Origin: a virus
IMG/VR virus record: IMGVR_UViG_3300019487_000003
Span: 1-64,000 of that record
Length of the DNA: 64,000 nucleotides
Reading direction: 5' to 3' (one strand)
The notes under the pieces were generated by a model, which was given only the letters and a program-made list of their open reading frames with translations, was not told the DNA's origin and ran no database searches. Below are positions 10,116-13,939 of this stretch, one piece after another. A program made the position numbers and the translations under genes. How positions within the stretch are numbered: the first letter of the stretch is position 1; each line of letters starts with the position of its first letter.

Positions 10116-10321
10116 ACAAAAGAATGGCTGATAGAGTTAAATTGAATAGAAGAAATACAAATCTTTTCTTATCAATTTCCTTGGTTGTGGTATTACTATT
10201 GTTAATAGCATTGTTTAGTTTGACATACAAATTCATTTCAACGAGAAAAAATGCTGTAATAAATATCCTCAGAGATTCTTATTCTGAGGTAAGTGATGTA
10301 TCGAGAACTAATCAAAGTTAA
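10097..10321 (+). CDS. Small single-pass membrane protein (tentative)
   Basis: Basic N-terminus followed by the hydrophobic stretch 'LFLSISLVVVLLLLIALFSL'. Overlaps both neighbours slightly. Confidence 0.35.
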   Translation: MDTRRINKRMADRVKLNRRNTNLFLSISLVVVLLLLIALFSLTYKFISTRKNAVINILRDSYSEVSDVSRTNQS

Positions 10322-11765
10322 AAAGCATAACGAAGTTTATGCTGTTATTTTAGCTGATTCTGGAATTCTTAAAGAATTATCAGAATATTTCAAATTTAGA
10401 GTCCCAGGATATCAATTCATGCCTAGTTATAAGTCTAGGATGTGGGATGGTTACATTCGACTTTTCAATTCTCTGACGTGCCAATTATATCTAGGTCTTG
10501 TAAAATATCTAAAAGTTTTTGCTAAAGAAAGAGAATATGATATAGAAATAGACGATGAGATTTATGAATGTGAGCAAGAAGTAACAAAAGAAAAGATAGA
10601 TTCATTCATAGAAAATTTATCTCTCCCACATAAACTTAGAGATGCACAATATCTTGCACTTCAAGAGGCTATTACAAAGGGTCGAAATCTACTATTAAGT
10701 CCTACCGCTTCAGGAAAATCCCTAATCATTTACACTCTGATTAGATGGTTTGAAACAGAAAAAGTTTTGATAATAGTTCCAACAATTGGACTAGTAACAC
10801 AGATGATTGATGATTTTAAATCATACGGATTTAATACAAAACATTGTCATGGGATTTATGAATCTCAATCTAAAGAAACAGATAAAAGAATAGTTGTATC
10901 TACATGGCAATCAATTTACAAGCTACCCAAATCTTGGTTTAAACAATTTGGTGTTGTCATTGGTGATGAAGCACACCTTTACAAAGCTGAATCTATTAAA
11001 AAGATAATGCAAAATCTTGAAACCTGTAAATATAGATTTGGCACAACTGGAACACTTGATGGAACACAAACAAATAAACTTGTATTAGAAGGTTTATTTG
11101 GTCCTGTCTTTCAAGTTACTACAACAAAAAAATTGATGGATGAGGGTCATCTTGCAAAACTTAAAATAGATTGTTTGTTATTGAAATATGATGTTGAAGA
11201 ATGTAAGAACTTGAGAGATTCAACATACAGAGATGAAGTTAAATTTATTATAGAAAATAACAAAAGAAATTCTTTCATAACAAACTTAGCAGTTAATTTA
11301 GAGAATAACACGATGGTTCTTTTTCAGTATGTTGATAAACATGGAAAAATTCTATATGAATCTATTAAAAAGAAAGCAAAGGGAAGAAAGGTCTTCTATG
11401 TTTCTGGTGAAACAGATGCAGAATCAAGAGAACAAGTCAGAAAAATAACAGAAAAAGAAAGAGGTGTTATTATTGTTGCATCTTCTGGTGTATTCAGCAC
11501 AGGCATCAATATAAGAAACTTAGATAATATCATTTTTGTCTTCCCTAGTAAATCGAGAATCAAGACATTGCAAAGCATCGGCCGCGTTTTACGTGTAGGA
11601 GATTATTCAAATAAAGCTACATTATATGATATAGTTGATGACCTCAGTTATAAAGCATACAAGAATTTTGCACTAACACATTTTTTGGAGAGAGCTAAGA
11701 TATACAACTCCGAAAAATTCGATTACAAGATTCATAAAATCGACTTTGCTTCCAAAAAGAGCTAA
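10296..11765 (+). CDS. uvsW: UvsW-type SF2 DNA helicase
   Basis: UvsW-like N-terminal domain ('FKFRVPGYQFMPSYKSRMWDGYIRLF'), Walker A 'SPTASGKS', 'GDEAH' box, helicase C motifs. Confidence 0.88.
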   Translation: MYRELIKVKKHNEVYAVILADSGILKELSEYFKFRVPGYQFMPSYKSRMWDGYIRLFNSLTCQLYLGLVKYLKVFAKEREYDIEIDDEIYECEQEVTKEKIDSFIENLSLPHKLRDAQYLALQEAITKGRNLLLSPTASGKSLIIYTLIRWFETEKVLIIVPTIGLVTQMIDDFKSYGFNTKHCHGIYESQSKETDKRIVVSTWQSIYKLPKSWFKQFGVVIGDEAHLYKAESIKKIMQNLETCKYRFGTTGTLDGTQTNKLVLEGLFGPVFQVTTTKKLMDEGHLAKLKIDCLLLKYDVEECKNLRDSTYRDEVKFIIENNKRNSFITNLAVNLENNTMVLFQYVDKHGKILYESIKKKAKGRKVFYVSGETDAESREQVRKITEKERGVIIVASSGVFSTGINIRNLDNIIFVFPSKSRIKTLQSIGRVLRVGDYSNKATLYDIVDDLSYKAYKNFALTHFLERAKIYNSEKFDYKIHKIDFASKKS

Positions 11766-11797
11766 ATATCTTTGTAGACAAAACAAAGGATATTTGG

Positions 11798-12223
11798 ATG
11801 TCAATACTCAAATTGTTCCGATTAACGAATGGAGATGACATCATTGGATTTCTTGAAGACGTTGATAAAGAAATTGTCGCCGAATTAAATGGTGATAGTG
11901 ATAAAAATGTTAACTACGATCATATTGTTTTTGTAAGAGATCCTCTAAGACTTATATGGAGCTATGATGCTTCAACAAAAGGACATCAATTGTTCTTAAC
12001 AAGATGGATGCCCTTTAGTGACGATACATTCTTTGCAATTCCAAAAGATAAGGTTGTTACGATAGCTGATCCCATGATGGAGGTTGAAAAGCACTATTAT
12101 GAAATCAGTGACGAAACATTTCTTCCTGGCCAGATAGAAAAGGAACAAGATCCTCAAAAGAAACAGTATATGGAATTCTTGAAGGGTTGGGACATCGATC
12201 CTGATAAAGAAGAACCCCATTAA
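11798..12223 (+). CDS. Hypothetical protein, distant paralogue of 27167..27508
   Basis: Both share 'RL-x-(N/S)G(D/E)(D/E)(I/L)(I/L)' and later P/L/W and 'KxV' positions (alignment by eye). Confidence 0.5.
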   Translation: MSILKLFRLTNGDDIIGFLEDVDKEIVAELNGDSDKNVNYDHIVFVRDPLRLIWSYDASTKGHQLFLTRWMPFSDDTFFAIPKDKVVTIADPMMEVEKHYYEISDETFLPGQIEKEQDPQKKQYMEFLKGWDIDPDKEEPH

Positions 12224-12355
12224 CTTTCAATCCTAAGCTGCCGCGTTGTCATGGCTGAGGTCTTTGAGTCAATTTTATATCTGACCCTATTATTACCTTA
12301 ATATTGCAATCCAACCCACTATTTTAATTTATTTTACATGGAACAAAAATAATTG

Positions 12356-12384
12356 TTGTTTTTACTTGAAATGGGTGCTATATA
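12356..12384 (+). promoter_or_regulatory. Candidate orphan promoter TTGTTT-17-TGcTATATA inside the long non-coding region
   Basis: Extended -10 context TGn. No ORF follows for about 190 nt. Confidence 0.3.
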
Positions 12385-12455
12385 TCCGTAGTCCTTCCGG
12401 TACTGACCAGTAACTAACCAGTTCTAGTATATACCAAGTCCAAAATACCAGATAC

Positions 12456-12518
12456 CAAACACCCGAACGAAGTGAGGGTGTTTGATGCGAAGCATCCAAA
12501 ACAACTTCGTTGTTTTGG
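12456..12518 (+). other. Three abutting perfect hairpins: 9-bp stem, GATGC-GAA-GCATC containing the GCGAAGC mini-hairpin, and a 10-bp stem with TTC loop
   Basis: CAAACACCC (12456-64) pairs with GGGTGTTTG (12476-84). Second hairpin 12484-12496. CCAAAACAAC (12496-12505) pairs with GTTGTTTTGG (12509-18). Confidence 0.7.
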
Positions 12519-12542
12519 GCCTAAGTCCTTTTCATGTATAAT
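12515..12542 (+). promoter_or_regulatory. Promoter candidate TTGGGC-16-TATAAT upstream of gene 55
   Basis: Perfect TATAAT at 12537-12542, 40 nt upstream of the ATG. The -35 is weak. Confidence 0.4.
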
Positions 12543-12581
12543 ATAACTTGATCTTCCTTTAAGAAGATGTTAATGTGAAAT

Positions 12582-13145
12582 ATGGCAAAGGCAGAAAAAG
12601 ATAAAATTCACTACGTGGATAATAAGGAGTTCCTCAAAGCGATGAAGGAGCACCGTAAAGCCTTTCTAAAATCCAAAAAAGAAGGGACTCCAAAACCAAG
12701 AGTTTCAGAATACATAGGTGAATGTATTTTAAAGATAGCACAGAAACTAGCCAACAAATCAAACTTCATCAATTACACATTTAGAGAAGATATGATCAAT
12801 GATGGCATAGAAAATTGTCTCATGTATATCAATAACTTCAATCCTAACAAATCAAAACAACCATTCGCATACTTCACTCAAATAGTTTACTATGCCTTCA
12901 TTAGAAGAATTGCCCGAGAAAAGAAACATCTATACACCAAATTTAAAATGATTGAACAAGCAATGACAAATGATTTCTTTGAAACAAATGAAGATTCACC
13001 TGTCAATGCTCCAACAAAATACGGTTCAGAACATTCAAATAATTACATGCATGAATTTATGGACAATTTTGAAAAGCATAAGAACGAAAAGAAAGCAAAA
13101 ACAACTAAAAAGAAAAAGAAATCCTTAGAAAAATTTCTGGAGTAA
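12582..13145 (+). CDS. gp55: Late-transcription sigma factor gp55
   Basis: 'HYVDNKEFLKAM', 'NFINYTFREDMINDGIENCL' and 'PFAYFTQIVYYAFIRRIAREKK' align with T4 gp55 ('NYVNNKELLQAI', '[21 protein letters not shown]', '[22 protein letters not shown]'). Confidence 0.9.
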   Translation: MAKAEKDKIHYVDNKEFLKAMKEHRKAFLKSKKEGTPKPRVSEYIGECILKIAQKLANKSNFINYTFREDMINDGIENCLMYINNFNPNKSKQPFAYFTQIVYYAFIRRIAREKKHLYTKFKMIEQAMTNDFFETNEDSPVNAPTKYGSEHSNNYMHEFMDNFEKHKNEKKAKTTKKKKKSLEKFLE

Positions 13146-13147
13146 TT

Positions 13148-13939
13148 ATGTCTGCATTTTCTTATAGATGGCAATACTATGTTAAGCATCCTATCCAAGT
13201 ATTAAATGATCTTGAACGTTGGATAGCGTTTCGGACATATGATAGATATAACAGGGTTGAAATCCCTACATTAGAACCCAATTATTATGATAAAGATACA
13301 ATATTGCTACATTCATGCTTTGCACTTCTAACAGAATATGTTGAACTTGAATTAGGTGGAGAACAATATTGGGCCGATAATTTTGATCATGAAAAGTTTG
13401 ATAGAAGATATGAAAAAGAGTCAGATTTGGAACGGAAGGGTAAGAAATATCAATTAGCTCTTTATAAATTCTGGAATGAATTACATTGGCCAAAATTTAT
13501 TACACGTTTAGCCCCTTATAGGGGTTCGCGGGAATTGGGATTGAAAAATCTTGATCAAAGAATAGAAGACGCCACTGATCCTAATCTTCATGAAGATGAA
13601 AAATATTTTTATCAACATCATTCTGAAATTGCAAGAGAGATGAAGGTTTTATATCTTTGGTGGCATGACATCTTTCTCAAAAGAACAGATCCGAGTGATC
13701 GTTGCGGCCTTACAAAATATGTTGACGAACTTTATAAGAAATATGGAAGGACGCATAGATTTGTCCCTACTGGAACAAATGGTAAAGCATTTGAAAGAAT
13801 TTTTAATGGAACAAAGGAAGAGGAAGAAAAATATAGTGAACTTATCAAAGAGATGTTTGATATAGAACAGGATGATAGTTTAGAAGAAACAAACATGCTA
13901 AAAAGATTAATAGACGTTAAAGACAGACTTTGGAGTTAA
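13148..13939 (+). CDS. Hypothetical protein
   Basis: 263-aa ORF tightly packed after gene 55. No motif recognised. Confidence 0.55.
   Translation: MSAFSYRWQYYVKHPIQVLNDLERWIAFRTYDRYNRVEIPTLEPNYYDKDTILLHSCFALLTEYVELELGGEQYWADNFDHEKFDRRYEKESDLERKGKKYQLALYKFWNELHWPKFITRLAPYRGSRELGLKNLDQRIEDATDPNLHEDEKYFYQHHSEIAREMKVLYLWWHDIFLKRTDPSDRCGLTKYVDELYKKYGRTHRFVPTGTNGKAFERIFNGTKEEEEKYSELIKEMFDIEQDDSLEETNMLKRLIDVKDRLWS

What the first reader, a model, noticed from the sequence alone, without database searches (positions are those of the whole stretch)
12224..12581. The longest non-coding stretch in the window carries an orphan promoter, ACCAG/ACCAA repeats and three stacked perfect hairpins
The window is otherwise tightly packed, but about 357 nt between 12223 and the gp55 ATG contain no plausible ORF. 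The region contains:
- A candidate promoter, TTGTTT-17-TGcTATATA (12356-12384).
- Five ACCAG/ACCAA(G) repeats at 12406, 12417, 12433, 12447 and 12454.
- Three directly abutting perfect hairpins at 12456-12518: a 9-bp stem, GATGC-GAA-GCATC (which embeds GCGAAGC, known as an exceptionally stable mini-hairpin), and a 10-bp stem with a TTC loop. CGAAG occurs twice.
- A TATAAT at 12537 for gene 55.
No T-run follows the hairpins, so this is not a canonical terminator. Possibilities are a structured sRNA or leader of about 130 nt, a processing or RNase-protection element, a protein-binding array, or a replication origin. T4 origins overlap promoters.
Basis: seen in the sequence. Interest (0 to 1): 0.62.

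Follow-up and report, generated by a model that had tools for sequence, protein, structure and literature searches.

The report
Promoter plus GAA-capped hairpin cassette
The long gap before the late-sigma-factor gene of this T4-like phage holds a promoter firing into very stable hairpins whose 11-base cap recurs, on unrelated stems, in many phages including coliphage RB16, so it is a real, conserved and apparently undescribed control element whose job is still open.

Summary
The spacer 12224-12581 is the longest gap in the window. The promoter, the ACCAG/ACCAA repeats and the three abutting hairpins are all present and exceed chance.

The element is conserved.
- Hairpin 1 (12456-12484) keeps its 11-nt cap GAACGAAGTGA in the two closest relatives, with two compensatory stem changes.
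- The same cap sits on unrelated stems in at least 55 viral contigs.
- It is often paired with a GCGAAGC mini-hairpin, which is the window's hairpin 2.
- In at least 12 distant T4-like phages the pair lies by uvsW or gene 55, on either strand. Seven of these have a near-consensus sigma-70 promoter firing into it.
- Coliphage RB16 has four copies: one 215 nt upstream of gene 55 and two before uvsY. T4 has none.
- No Rfam family matches, and no indexed paper holds the motif in a relevant context.

The unit is therefore an autonomous promoter-plus-hairpin cassette, not simply a gene 55 leader.

My ranking of functions:
- Transcription stop or insulator that also makes a short RNA, close to the described PeSL cassettes: 0.4.
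- R-loop replication origin with DNA mini-hairpins on the displaced strand: 0.25.
- Trans-acting RNA or protein decoy: 0.15.
- Gene 55 leader operator: 0.12.

The scan had not recorded this sequence on other DNA.

The parts
12224..12355 (+). Proximal part of the spacer after the DUF6561/Sm-like ORF. It is A+T-rich from 12264 (68-85% A+T). It has no terminator and no conserved ORF.
12356..12384 (+). Promoter P1: TTGTTT, 17 nt, TG-extended TATATA. A TTGAAA word (12366-12371) lies 7 nt before the -10 box. The block is conserved in L082 (TTGTTT-18-TATATA with TTGACA embedded) and L083 (TTGATT-17-TATAAA with TTGACA embedded).
12388..12455 (+). Unstructured, G-poor transcribed tract. It starts with the conserved GTAGTCC (12388-12394). 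It carries AGTCC at 12390 and 12437 and ACCAG/ACCAA at 12406, 12417, 12433, 12447 and 12454.
   Evidence: for the 71-nt tract 12385-12455, C minus G = +10, in the top 2% of genome windows; word enrichment; fold z = +0.19.
12456..12484 (+). Hairpin 1 (hpY): a 9-bp stem capped by the invariant GAACGAAGTGA. The cap reads as tandem G.A pairs, then A-U and C-G pairs, then a GAA triloop.
   Evidence: two compensatory changes among three relatives; same cap on at least 55 unrelated stems; covariation in 19 T4-like copies.
12484..12496 (+). Hairpin 2 (hpX): GATGC-GAA-GCATC, which contains the GCGAAGC mini-hairpin. It is present as GATGC-TTC-GCATC in L083. It is identical in the unrelated T4-like contig L365, where it directly follows hpY.
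12496..12518 (.). Hairpin 3: CCAAAACAAC-TTC-GTTGTTTTGG. On the minus strand its apex reads AACGAAGTT, an inverted copy of the hpY cap core. It is found only in the window, not in L082 or L083.
   Evidence: covariance model hit on the minus strand, E = 0.0017..
12524..12528 (+). Third AGTCC copy, 5 nt after hairpin 3. L082 has AAGTCCA at the equivalent place after its hairpin.
12537..12542 (+). Its -35 is weak (TTGGGC at 16 nt) and it is not conserved in L082 or L083.
12548..12581 (+). Candidate proximal gene 55 promoter: TTGATC (12548-12553), 17 nt, TAATGT (12571-12576), then 5 nt to the ATG. No Shine-Dalgarno sequence is present. It aligns with TTGATC-17-TATATT-7-ATG in L082.
   Evidence: many promoters in this genome end 6 nt before an ATG; relatives have TTGACA-17-GATAAT-6-ATG before gene 55.
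12582..13145 (+). Gene 55, the late sigma factor. It is the downstream neighbour of the cassette.
11798..12223 (+). Upstream neighbour: a 141-aa DUF6561 protein with a sub-threshold Sm_like match. It follows uvsW in this whole phage group.

Best explanation
The spacer holds one copy of an autonomous cassette found in many phages.

Shown:
- An early-type sigma-70 promoter (P1, 12356-12384) sits ahead of about 70 nt of unstructured, G-poor sequence. That sequence runs into a stack of very stable hairpins.
- The hairpin apices are fixed: GAACGAAGUGA on hairpin 1 and GCGAAGC on hairpin 2. The stems are free to vary.
- The cassette is conserved, occurs in either orientation, and recurs beside gene 55 in distant T4-like phages.

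Inferred mechanism:
- The hairpin stack stops, pauses or 3'-end-protects transcription coming from either side.
- It therefore insulates gene 55 from the uvsY-uvsW operon and from P1.
- In the window and in L082, gene 55 has its own promoter-like box next to a start codon that lacks a ribosome-binding site.
- P1 itself yields a short non-coding RNA of roughly 110-130 nt that ends in, and is stabilised by, the hairpins.

This makes the locus a variant of the composite promoter/stem-loop cassettes (PeSLs) described in T4-type phages.
For: - The structure is real. The cluster folds at -28.3 kcal/mol with z = -4.9, while the 68 nt before it are unstructured.
- Hairpin 1 is 100% paired in the window, L082 and L083, with two compensatory changes and a fixed loop.
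- In 19 copies from T4-like loci, chosen only because uvsW or gene 55 lies in the locus, 78.5% of cells pair against 57% in shuffles (0 of 500 reach it). All 9 stem pairs covary. Controls with the 3' partner slid give 25-42%.
- The same cap sits on at least 55 different stems of 5-18 bp, against about 1 expected at 6 bp or more.
- Position fits a stop or 3'-end element. In contigs with reliable ORF calls, 25 of 32 hairpins are intergenic. In about half of those the hairpin starts within 50 nt of a stop codon, on whichever strand the flanking gene lies.
- Either orientation is tolerated, as expected for a palindromic stem.
- PeSL stem-loops in RB49 terminate transcription in a reporter assay and are paired with sigma-70 promoters (PMC2839356, read; PMC4122927).
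- Gene 55 has a promoter-like box right at its ATG in the window, in L082 and in the cyanophage-like relatives.
- This genome uses many such leaderless-type promoters.
Against: - No U-tract follows any hairpin, so intrinsic termination by E. coli-type polymerase would be weak.
- In L083 no promoter separates the hairpins from gene 55, which there has a GGAGG ribosome site. Read-through must occur there.
- A pure stability role does not easily explain an identical 11-nt cap across hosts from 17% to 71% G+C.
- It also does not explain why phages with the antisense orientation keep a perfect promoter dedicated to transcribing the GAA strand.
- GCGAAGC is known for exceptional stability as DNA rather than RNA (PMC13037366).
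- PeSL stem-loops sit upstream of their promoter. Here the hairpins are 71 nt downstream of P1.
Confidence: 0.4

Rival explanations
1. The cassette is a replication origin or single-strand initiation signal. The promoter makes a primer RNA, as at T4 oriF, oriG and oriE. The displaced non-template DNA strand carries the GAA-type caps. It folds into the exceptionally stable DNA mini-hairpins, which hold the R-loop open and give the primosome a landing site.
For: - The unit is orientation-free but always has a promoter that makes the GAA strand the non-template strand.
- The transcribed 5' tract is not conserved in sequence or length, only the promoter and hairpins are.
- GCGAAGC-type mini-hairpins are documented at the phage G4 origin, at RSF1010 ssiA and at N4 hairpin promoters (PMC13037366).
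- All T4 origins are thought to work through promoter-derived primer RNAs. oriE uses an early promoter and has direct repeats (PMC3016281).
- RB16 has 3 loci, a number comparable to T4's 5 or more origins. One locus is directly upstream of uvsY, where T4 has oriF. Two loci are at points of divergent transcription. All three have an A+T-rich centre between inward-facing hairpins.
- Neighbouring genes are uvsW, uvsY and rnh, whose T4 homologues process or unwind origin R-loops.
- Short direct repeats often flank the hairpins.
Against: - The stretch downstream of P1 in the window is the least A+T-rich part of the spacer (53-62% against a genome mean of 64%), so there is no unwinding element where T4 origins have one.
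- The RNA is C-rich and G-poor, which disfavours stable R-loops.
- Cumulative GC skew shows no inflection here, although that test is uninformative in this one-strand genome.
- T4 itself lacks the motif, and T4 has no origin at gene 55.
- The same hairpin occurs next to integrase genes in temperate phages and right after stop codons, which suggests a more general role.
Confidence: 0.25
2. The cassette is a small RNA gene whose product acts in trans. The fixed hairpin caps are a binding or decoy site for a protein. Candidates are a host RNA chaperone or nuclease, a defence protein, or the Sm-like protein encoded just upstream. The stems only have to pair.
For: - The pattern of an invariant 11-nt cap with freely covarying stems is typical of protein-recognised hairpins.
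- A dedicated strong promoter is kept even when the unit points away from every gene.
- The cap can form tandem G.A pairs plus a GAA triloop, a structured platform.
- The upstream ORF matches Pfam Sm_like, though below threshold.
Against: - There is no terminator to define the 3' end.
- The non-hairpin part is not conserved, so there is no seed region.
- In at least 8 low-G+C cases without an obvious promoter, the cap is on the strand antisense to all neighbours.
- In RB16 the neighbour of gene 55 is rnh, not the Sm-like gene.
- Hosts are too diverse for one host protein partner. No Rfam family matches.
Confidence: 0.15
3. The hairpins are a cis-acting operator in a long 5' leader of gene 55 mRNA made from P1. 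The operator would control translation, anti-termination or stability. It would time the appearance of the late sigma factor, like the gene 43 or gene 32 operators of T4.
For: - In the window, L082, L083 and L120 the unit is on the sense strand 72-100 nt upstream of gene 55. In RB16 the sense-strand copy lies 215 nt upstream.
- In L083 gene 55 has no other visible promoter, so its mRNA must include the hairpins.
- T4 gene 43 is controlled through a conserved-loop hairpin about 40 nt upstream of its start (PMC3014915).
Against: - In L365, L332, L306, L246, L398 and L391 the unit is on the opposite strand, and gene 55 there has its own promoter and short leader.
- The same hairpins occur upstream of uvsY and beside gene 3 in RB16, and in non-T4 phages.
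- Gene 55 in the window lacks a ribosome-binding site and has a promoter-like box at the ATG.
Confidence: 0.12
4. The features are a chance accumulation in a decaying spacer and have no function.
For: The first 130 nt of the spacer show nothing conserved.
Against: Fold z-scores run from -4.4 to -8.0. There is covariation. The module recurs in at least 55 contigs and in 64 cultured RB16/RB43-type phages. RB16 has 4 exact copies against 0 in the reversed-pattern control.
Confidence: 0.02

Closest known systems
PeSLs, promoter-early stem-loop cassettes of T4-type phages (Arbiol et al. 2010, PMC2839356; Comeau et al. 2014, PMC4122927)
   Same: Both are composite intergenic cassettes of T4-like phages that couple a sigma-70-type early promoter with a stable stem-loop. 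In PeSLs the stem-loop acts as a terminator or attenuator without needing a classic U-tract. Both lie between genes, and both are proposed sites of modular exchange.
   Different: - PeSL stem-loops lie just upstream of or inside the promoter. Here the hairpins are 40-110 nt downstream of it.
- PeSL stems have group-specific sequences (polyG/polyC, A3-4G3...C3T3-4) and no fixed loop. Here the stems are free and the 11-nt cap is fixed.
- PeSLs occur in dozens of copies in hyperplastic regions. This phage has one copy and RB16 has four caps at three loci, all next to core genes (55, uvsY, 3).
GCGAAGC / GCGAAAGC mini-hairpin DNA at initiation sites: phage G4 complementary-strand origin, RSF1010 ssiA, N4 virion RNA polymerase promoters (review PMC13037366)
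   Same: Hairpin 2 is exactly a 5-bp stem with a GAA loop around GCGAAGC, the geometry of N4 hairpin promoters. Hairpin 1's apex is a CGAAG mini-hairpin. Three stacked hairpins recall the three hairpins of the G4 origin.
   Different: Those systems act on single-stranded DNA and need a dedicated primase or virion RNA polymerase. I did not test for a virion RNA polymerase gene in this phage. Here the hairpins are linked to an ordinary sigma-70 promoter, and the larger cap GAACGAAGTGA is not described there.
T4 R-loop origins oriF(uvsY), oriG(34) and the early-promoter, iteron-bearing oriE (review PMC3016281)
   Same: Both have a promoter producing an untranslated RNA in an intergenic region near recombination and replication genes. 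oriE has direct repeats. One RB16 copy lies at the oriF-equivalent position upstream of uvsY.
   Different: T4 minimal origins are a MotA-dependent promoter plus an A+T-rich unwinding element, with no conserved hairpins. The window has no A+T-rich element downstream of P1. T4 lacks the motif.
Translational operators of T4 genes 43 and 32 (review PMC3014915)
   Same: Both involve a hairpin with a conserved loop in the upstream region of a key regulatory or replication gene.
   Different: Those operators are fixed in the sense leader and overlap the ribosome site. This unit occurs on either strand and also at other genes.

Membership tests
PeSL (promoter-early stem-loop cassette) | Sigma-70-like early promoter with an A+T-rich stretch upstream | tested here: met
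   TTGTTT-17-TGcTATATA at 12356-12384, preceded by 68-85% A+T. The block is conserved in L082 and L083.
PeSL (promoter-early stem-loop cassette) | Stem-loop placed just upstream of, or overlapping, the promoter, followed by a Shine-Dalgarno sequence and start codon | tested here: inconclusive
   Relative to P1 the hairpins are 71 nt downstream, so the feature is not met. Relative to the weak proximal boxes (TATAAT 12537; TAATGT 12571) they are upstream, but gene 55 has no Shine-Dalgarno sequence.
PeSL (promoter-early stem-loop cassette) | Many copies per genome, concentrated in hyperplastic regions | tested here: not met
   One copy in the 167.8-kb genome. It lies between core genes.
PeSL (promoter-early stem-loop cassette) | The stem-loop terminates transcription in vivo | not testable with these tools
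   Needs a reporter assay or transcript end mapping.
Intrinsic (Rho-independent) terminator | G+C-rich stem followed directly by a U-tract | tested here: not met
   The scan finds 0 terminator-like sites in 11500-13300. The tails after the stems are atgcgaagca and gcctaagtcc.
T4-type R-loop origin (oriF/oriG) | Middle-mode (MotA box) promoter | tested here: not met
   No TGCTT box at -30. The promoter is of sigma-70 early type.
T4-type R-loop origin (oriF/oriG) | A+T-rich unwinding element directly downstream of the promoter | tested here: not met
   12384-12500 is 53-62% A+T, below the genome mean of 64%.
T4-type R-loop origin (oriF/oriG) | Supports autonomous replication or R-loop formation during infection | not testable with these tools
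   Requires experiments.
N4-type hairpin promoter | 5-7-bp stem with a 3-nt GAA or GGA loop | tested here: met
   GATGC-GAA-GCATC at 12484-12496. Feature definition taken from PMC13037366.
N4-type hairpin promoter | The phage encodes a virion RNA polymerase that reads it | not tested
   I did not search the genome for such a gene. T4-like phages are not known to have one (my own knowledge).
Any Rfam RNA family | Covariance-model match | tested here: not met
   No hit at gathering score in the window. No hit at E up to 10 in 12150-12650. No hit on the modules of RB16, L365, L332, L120 or L153.
T4 gene 43/32-type translational operator | Fixed sense-strand position in the leader, overlapping or next to the ribosome site of the regulated gene | tested here: not met
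   Hairpin 1 lies 98-126 nt upstream of the ATG. In six relatives the unit is on the opposite strand.

The most novel reading that the evidence does not exclude
The GAACGAAGTGA-capped hairpin, with its GCGAAGC partner and a promoter that transcribes through it, is a so far unrecognised, widely shared phage initiation signal. One reading is a replication origin in which transcription exposes the non-template strand, and ultra-stable DNA mini-hairpins lock the R-loop open and recruit the primosome. The other is a hairpin cap read by a conserved protein. Either reading would give sequence-recognisable origins or control sites in T4-like phages outside T4, including the culturable RB16/RB43 group.
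Probability: 0.3. Interest if true: 0.85.

Novelty: new variant of a known kind. Interest (0 to 1): 0.66.

Why it matters
- Origins of T4 relatives. The review of T4 replication states that no local sequence motif is shared among T4's origins. If this cassette is an origin, it would be the first sequence-recognisable one for a large part of the family.
- Expression of the late sigma factor. If it is an insulator or a small RNA, it marks a conserved control point in front of the late sigma factor, the switch to late gene expression.
- A new structural motif. An 11-nt hairpin cap that stays identical across phages of hosts from 17% to 71% G+C is unusual. It is not in Rfam.
- Testability. The cassette is present in 64 cultured coliphage-type genomes of the RB16/RB43 group, so it can be tested at once in E. 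coli laboratory strains.

Tried and rejected
- Rfam and tRNA scans found nothing.
- DNA similarity of the spacer to cultured phages found nothing relevant.
- An exact 22-mer search of viral contigs found nothing.
- The first hairpin pattern, with fixed AAAC/GTTTG stem ends, found only the known relative plus two spurious GC-rich bacterial hits.
- Searching with the fast-evolving upstream ORF found only the query itself.
- Aligning the spacer with relatives at 57% gp55 identity (L002-L007) gave no usable alignment.
- The covariance model R1 found no further copy among 90 gene 55 loci. Its weak hits inside gene 55 coding sequence are at chance level.
- A small-ORF reading was rejected. A GTG-initiated ORF starts inside the hairpin 1 loop in all three relatives. 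Its length is 14-24 aa, its C-terminus is not conserved and it has no ribosome site. The shared residues are explained by the hairpin arm.
- Loop-loop kissing between the hairpin 1 cap and a downstream CUUCG apex is strong in the window (-10.3 kcal/mol). It is weaker in L083 (-7.6) and absent in L082 (-5.0), so it is not conserved.
- A Rho-utilisation-site reading of the C-rich tract was dropped as a general explanation. The tract is G/T-rich in L306 and A-rich in L398.
- The idea that the GC-rich carriers are N4-like was rejected. L153 and L211 encode integrases and terminases.
- G.T versus A.C counting could not assign a strand (8 against 8).
- A general link to E. coli-type promoters across all carriers is not significant. 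It holds only in the T4-like subset.
- GC skew is uninformative.
Full report
**1. What the window is**

The window is the first 64 kb of a complete 167.8-kb uncultured T4-like phage with 36% G+C. The local gene order is uvsW (10293-11765), a 141-aa DUF6561 protein (11798-12223), the spacer, gene 55 (12582-13145), and then further on the gene 47 homologue. Identical copies of the spacer occur in a JGI metagenome and in a Logan assembly.

**2. Checking the observation**

The spacer 12224-12581 is the longest gap between ORFs of at least 60 aa in the window. It holds no conserved small ORF.

- ACCAG/ACCAA occurs 5 times against 0.38 expected.
- The three hairpins abut and share one base at each junction.
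- Together they fold at -28.3 kcal/mol as RNA, with z = -4.9.
- As DNA on either strand z is about -6.
- The 68 nt between the promoter and the hairpins are unstructured, with z = +0.19.
- That tract is G-poor. For the 71-nt tract 12385-12455, C minus G is +10, in the top 2% of genome windows.
- No terminator-like site is found here. The genome does have ordinary stem-plus-T-run terminators elsewhere.

**3. Close relatives**

Gene 55 has no close relative in cultured phages. The best metagenomic relatives are 68% identical (L082) and 64% identical (L083). Both keep the same layout.
- The promoter block is conserved. The -35 is TTGtTT, the spacer is 17-18 nt and the -10 is TATAtA. A TTGACA word is embedded 7 nt before the -10.
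- GTAGTCC follows directly after the -10.
- AGTCCA words are present.
- Hairpin 1 keeps its loop, GAACGA(A/TA)GTGA.
- Two stem positions changed on both sides: A:U to G:C in L082 and C:G to U:A in L083.
- All 9 pairs are intact in all three sequences.
- Hairpin 2 is present in L083 with its loop flipped (GATGC-TTC-GCATC). Hairpin 3 is unique to the window.

Relatives at 60-64% identity (L091, L093-L096, L102) have 190-300-nt spacers. These carry a TATATA promoter and repeated (A)AG(A)TCC or CCTCC words, but no hairpin 1.

Cyanophage-like relatives, including S-RSM4, have spacers of about 110-150 nt. In the metagenomic ones a TGTCAAG...CTTGACA palindrome overlaps the -35 of a TTGACA-17-GATAAT box that ends 6 nt before the gene 55 ATG. 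S-RSM4 has the same palindrome with TTGACA-17-TATACT, 26 nt before a GTG start.

The window has TTGATC-17-TAATGT ending 5 nt before the ATG, with no ribosome site. L082 has TTGATC-17-TATATT ending 7 nt before it. This genome has many promoters ending 6 nt before an ATG.

**4. The turn: the cap is widespread**

A covariance model of hairpin 1 found nothing further among 90 gene 55 loci, and only itself in its own genome.

Searching viral contigs for the loop gave hundreds of hits. One search used two fixed closing pairs. Two others used a neighbouring GCGAAGC.

Among 339 distinct contexts, 36 have stems of 6 bp or more directly flanking the 11-nt GAACGAAGTGA, against about 1 expected. Stems reach 18 bp and are all different. 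Fifty-five have stems of 5 bp or more.

Many carry a second hairpin with a GCGAAGC, or sometimes GCGGAGC or GCGAAAGC, apex. It lies 0-3 nt before or after the first. In L365 the pair reads ...GGAC-GAACGAAGTGA-GTCC-GATGCGAAGCATC. That is the same hairpin 2 as in the window.

Apparent exceptions with short stems resolve once tandem G.A pairs are allowed. One example is ATACAT-GAAC-GAACGAAGTGA-GTGA-ATGTAT. The cap itself reads as two sheared G.A pairs, then A-U and C-G pairs, then a GAA triloop.

**5. Link to T4-like phages and gene 55**

At least 12 of the fetched loci carry uvsW and/or gene 55 beside the module.
- In L120 the module lies 72 nt upstream of gene 55 on the same strand. The gene was confirmed as phrog_234.
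- In L365, L332, L306, L246, L398 and L391 it lies between the uvsW group and gene 55, but on the opposite strand.
- Read in the orientation of the cap, L365, L332, L306, L246, L398, L288 and L397 have a consensus or near-consensus sigma-70 promoter 37-95 nt upstream of the hairpins.
- In L365 that promoter is back to back with gene 55's own promoter.
- The transcribed tract between promoter and hairpins varies in length (14-95 nt) and in composition.

L188 turned out to be coliphage RB16 and L163 to be Lw1. Sixty-four cultured RB16/RB43-type phages carry the element at 3-4 places each.

RB16 has four exact caps, against none for the reversed-pattern control. All sit inside a repeat of about 150 bp with an A+T-rich centre.
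- One is 215 nt upstream of gene 55, in the divergent rnh/55 spacer.
- One is in the divergent gene 3/ORF185 spacer.
- Two convergent copies are in the gene 24/uvsY spacer.

T4, S-RSM4 and Pelagibacter phage Mosig have none.

I took 19 hairpins from T4-like loci, chosen by their neighbouring genes and not by their pairing.
- 78.5% of cells pair, against 57% in shuffles (0 of 500 reach it).
- The covariation score is 0.52 against 0.17.
- All nine stem pairs change on both sides.
- Slid controls give 25-42% pairing.

**6. What this says about function**

The unit is autonomous. It consists of a promoter, a variable tract and capped hairpins, and it is free in orientation relative to gene 55. This argues against a dedicated gene 55 leader operator. 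Even so, in L083 gene 55 must be transcribed through the hairpins.

In contigs with reliable ORF calls, 25 of 32 hairpins are intergenic. In about half of those the hairpin starts within 50 nt of a stop codon, with either cap orientation. This is the position of a terminator or a 3'-end protector.

The nearest described class is the PeSL cassette of T4-type phages. It combines a sigma-70 promoter with a stem-loop that terminates in a reporter assay. The present unit differs from it in three ways:
- the order of the parts;
- the fixed cap;
- the low copy number and the position next to core genes.

Against a purely structural role stand two facts. The 11-nt cap is identical across hosts of 17-71% G+C. 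Phages with the antisense orientation also keep a dedicated promoter that always transcribes the GAA strand.

Those two facts fit an origin-type model. In that model transcription displaces the GAA strand, and its DNA mini-hairpins stabilise the open complex.
- GCGAAGC is documented as an exceptionally stable DNA hairpin found at the G4 origin, at RSF1010 ssiA and at N4 promoters.
- T4 origins are promoter-driven, and one of them lies at uvsY.

Evidence against the origin model:
- The window lacks an A+T-rich element downstream of P1.
- The RNA is G-poor.
- T4 lacks the motif.
- The hairpin also occurs beside integrase genes of temperate phages.

Counting wobble pairs does not decide the strand.

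**7. Verdict**

The element is a real, conserved cassette. I found no match in Rfam. No paper in the searchable library holds the cap sequence in a relevant context.

I file it as a new variant of the composite promoter/stem-loop cassettes of T4-type phages. My ranking of functions is:
- transcription stop or insulator plus short RNA: 0.4;
- R-loop origin: 0.25;
- trans-acting RNA or decoy: 0.15;
- gene 55 leader operator: 0.12;
- chance: 0.02.

The earlier-findings index holds no look-alike of this sequence.

Noticed in passing
window 11798-12223: The 141-aa ORF after uvsW reaches the Pfam cut-off for DUF6561 (27.8 bits). It also matches Sm_like PF16243 at 23.5 bits, below the cut-off. The same small ORF follows uvsW in L082, L083, L091, L120 and in S-RSM4 and Mosig, where it is annotated as 'methylamine utilization'. 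It may be an Sm-fold RNA-binding protein.
   Followed up: partly
L437 2516-2786; L442 930-1130; L443 990-1170 (coliphage RB16): A repeat of about 150 bp occurs at three RB16 loci. It has GAA-capped hairpins on the top strand, then an A+T-rich centre with a CTACAT...ATGTAG inverted repeat, then GAA-capped hairpins on the bottom strand. It occurs at 3-4 places in each of 64 RB16/RB43-type phages. I found no description of it in the papers read.
   Followed up: partly
L013, L038, L017, L020, L024, L040 (about 110-130 nt before gene 55); L103 1420-1470 (S-RSM4): In cyanophage-like relatives a TGTCAAG...CTTGACA palindrome overlaps the -35 of the gene 55 promoter. In the metagenomic relatives the promoter (TTGACA-17-GATAAT) ends 6 nt before the ATG, implying a leaderless gene 55 mRNA with a possible operator at the -35. 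A conserved TAGCTATATCC...GGTACATATCTAGGGTAAC block precedes it.
   Followed up: no
L153 7082-7200; L211; L131; L239; L161; L179: In many unrelated phages the capped hairpin is followed by short direct repeats (GATTC/GAATC, CCGGTT, TTCCCCTG, C/T-rich runs). In L153 and L211 the module lies between the terminase and integrase genes, possibly in the attP region.
   Followed up: partly
L135 4699-4723: A 60% G+C contig carries the hairpin with the same 7-bp stem (AACACTC/GAGTGTT) as L083. This hints at horizontal spread of the whole hairpin.
   Followed up: no
L101 247-837: The gene 55 homologue P0114 on this ENA contig translates to the recorded protein only with TGA read as Trp. This suggests a T4-like phage using, or called under, genetic code 4.
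   Followed up: no
L153 2290-2358 (minus strand): There is a Proteo-phage-1 RNA (RF03044) match at 46.6 bits, above the gathering score, in a contig that also carries the hairpin module elsewhere.
   Followed up: no
L094 1380-1470; L091 1320-1340; L093 1440-1460: The gene 55 spacers of relatives at 60-63% identity contain several CCTCC words. One stretch, GATACCTCCTTA, resembles the 3' end of 16S rRNA (recalled from my own knowledge). They may be anti-Shine-Dalgarno mimics.
   Followed up: no
window 12366-12394: TTGAAA/TTGACA lies exactly 7 nt before the TATA box, and TAGTCC lies 17 nt after it, in the window and L082. In L083 TTGACA is also 7 nt before the TATA box, but TAGTCG follows at 19 nt. 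A second, overlapping promoter or a regulator site cannot be excluded.
   Followed up: partly
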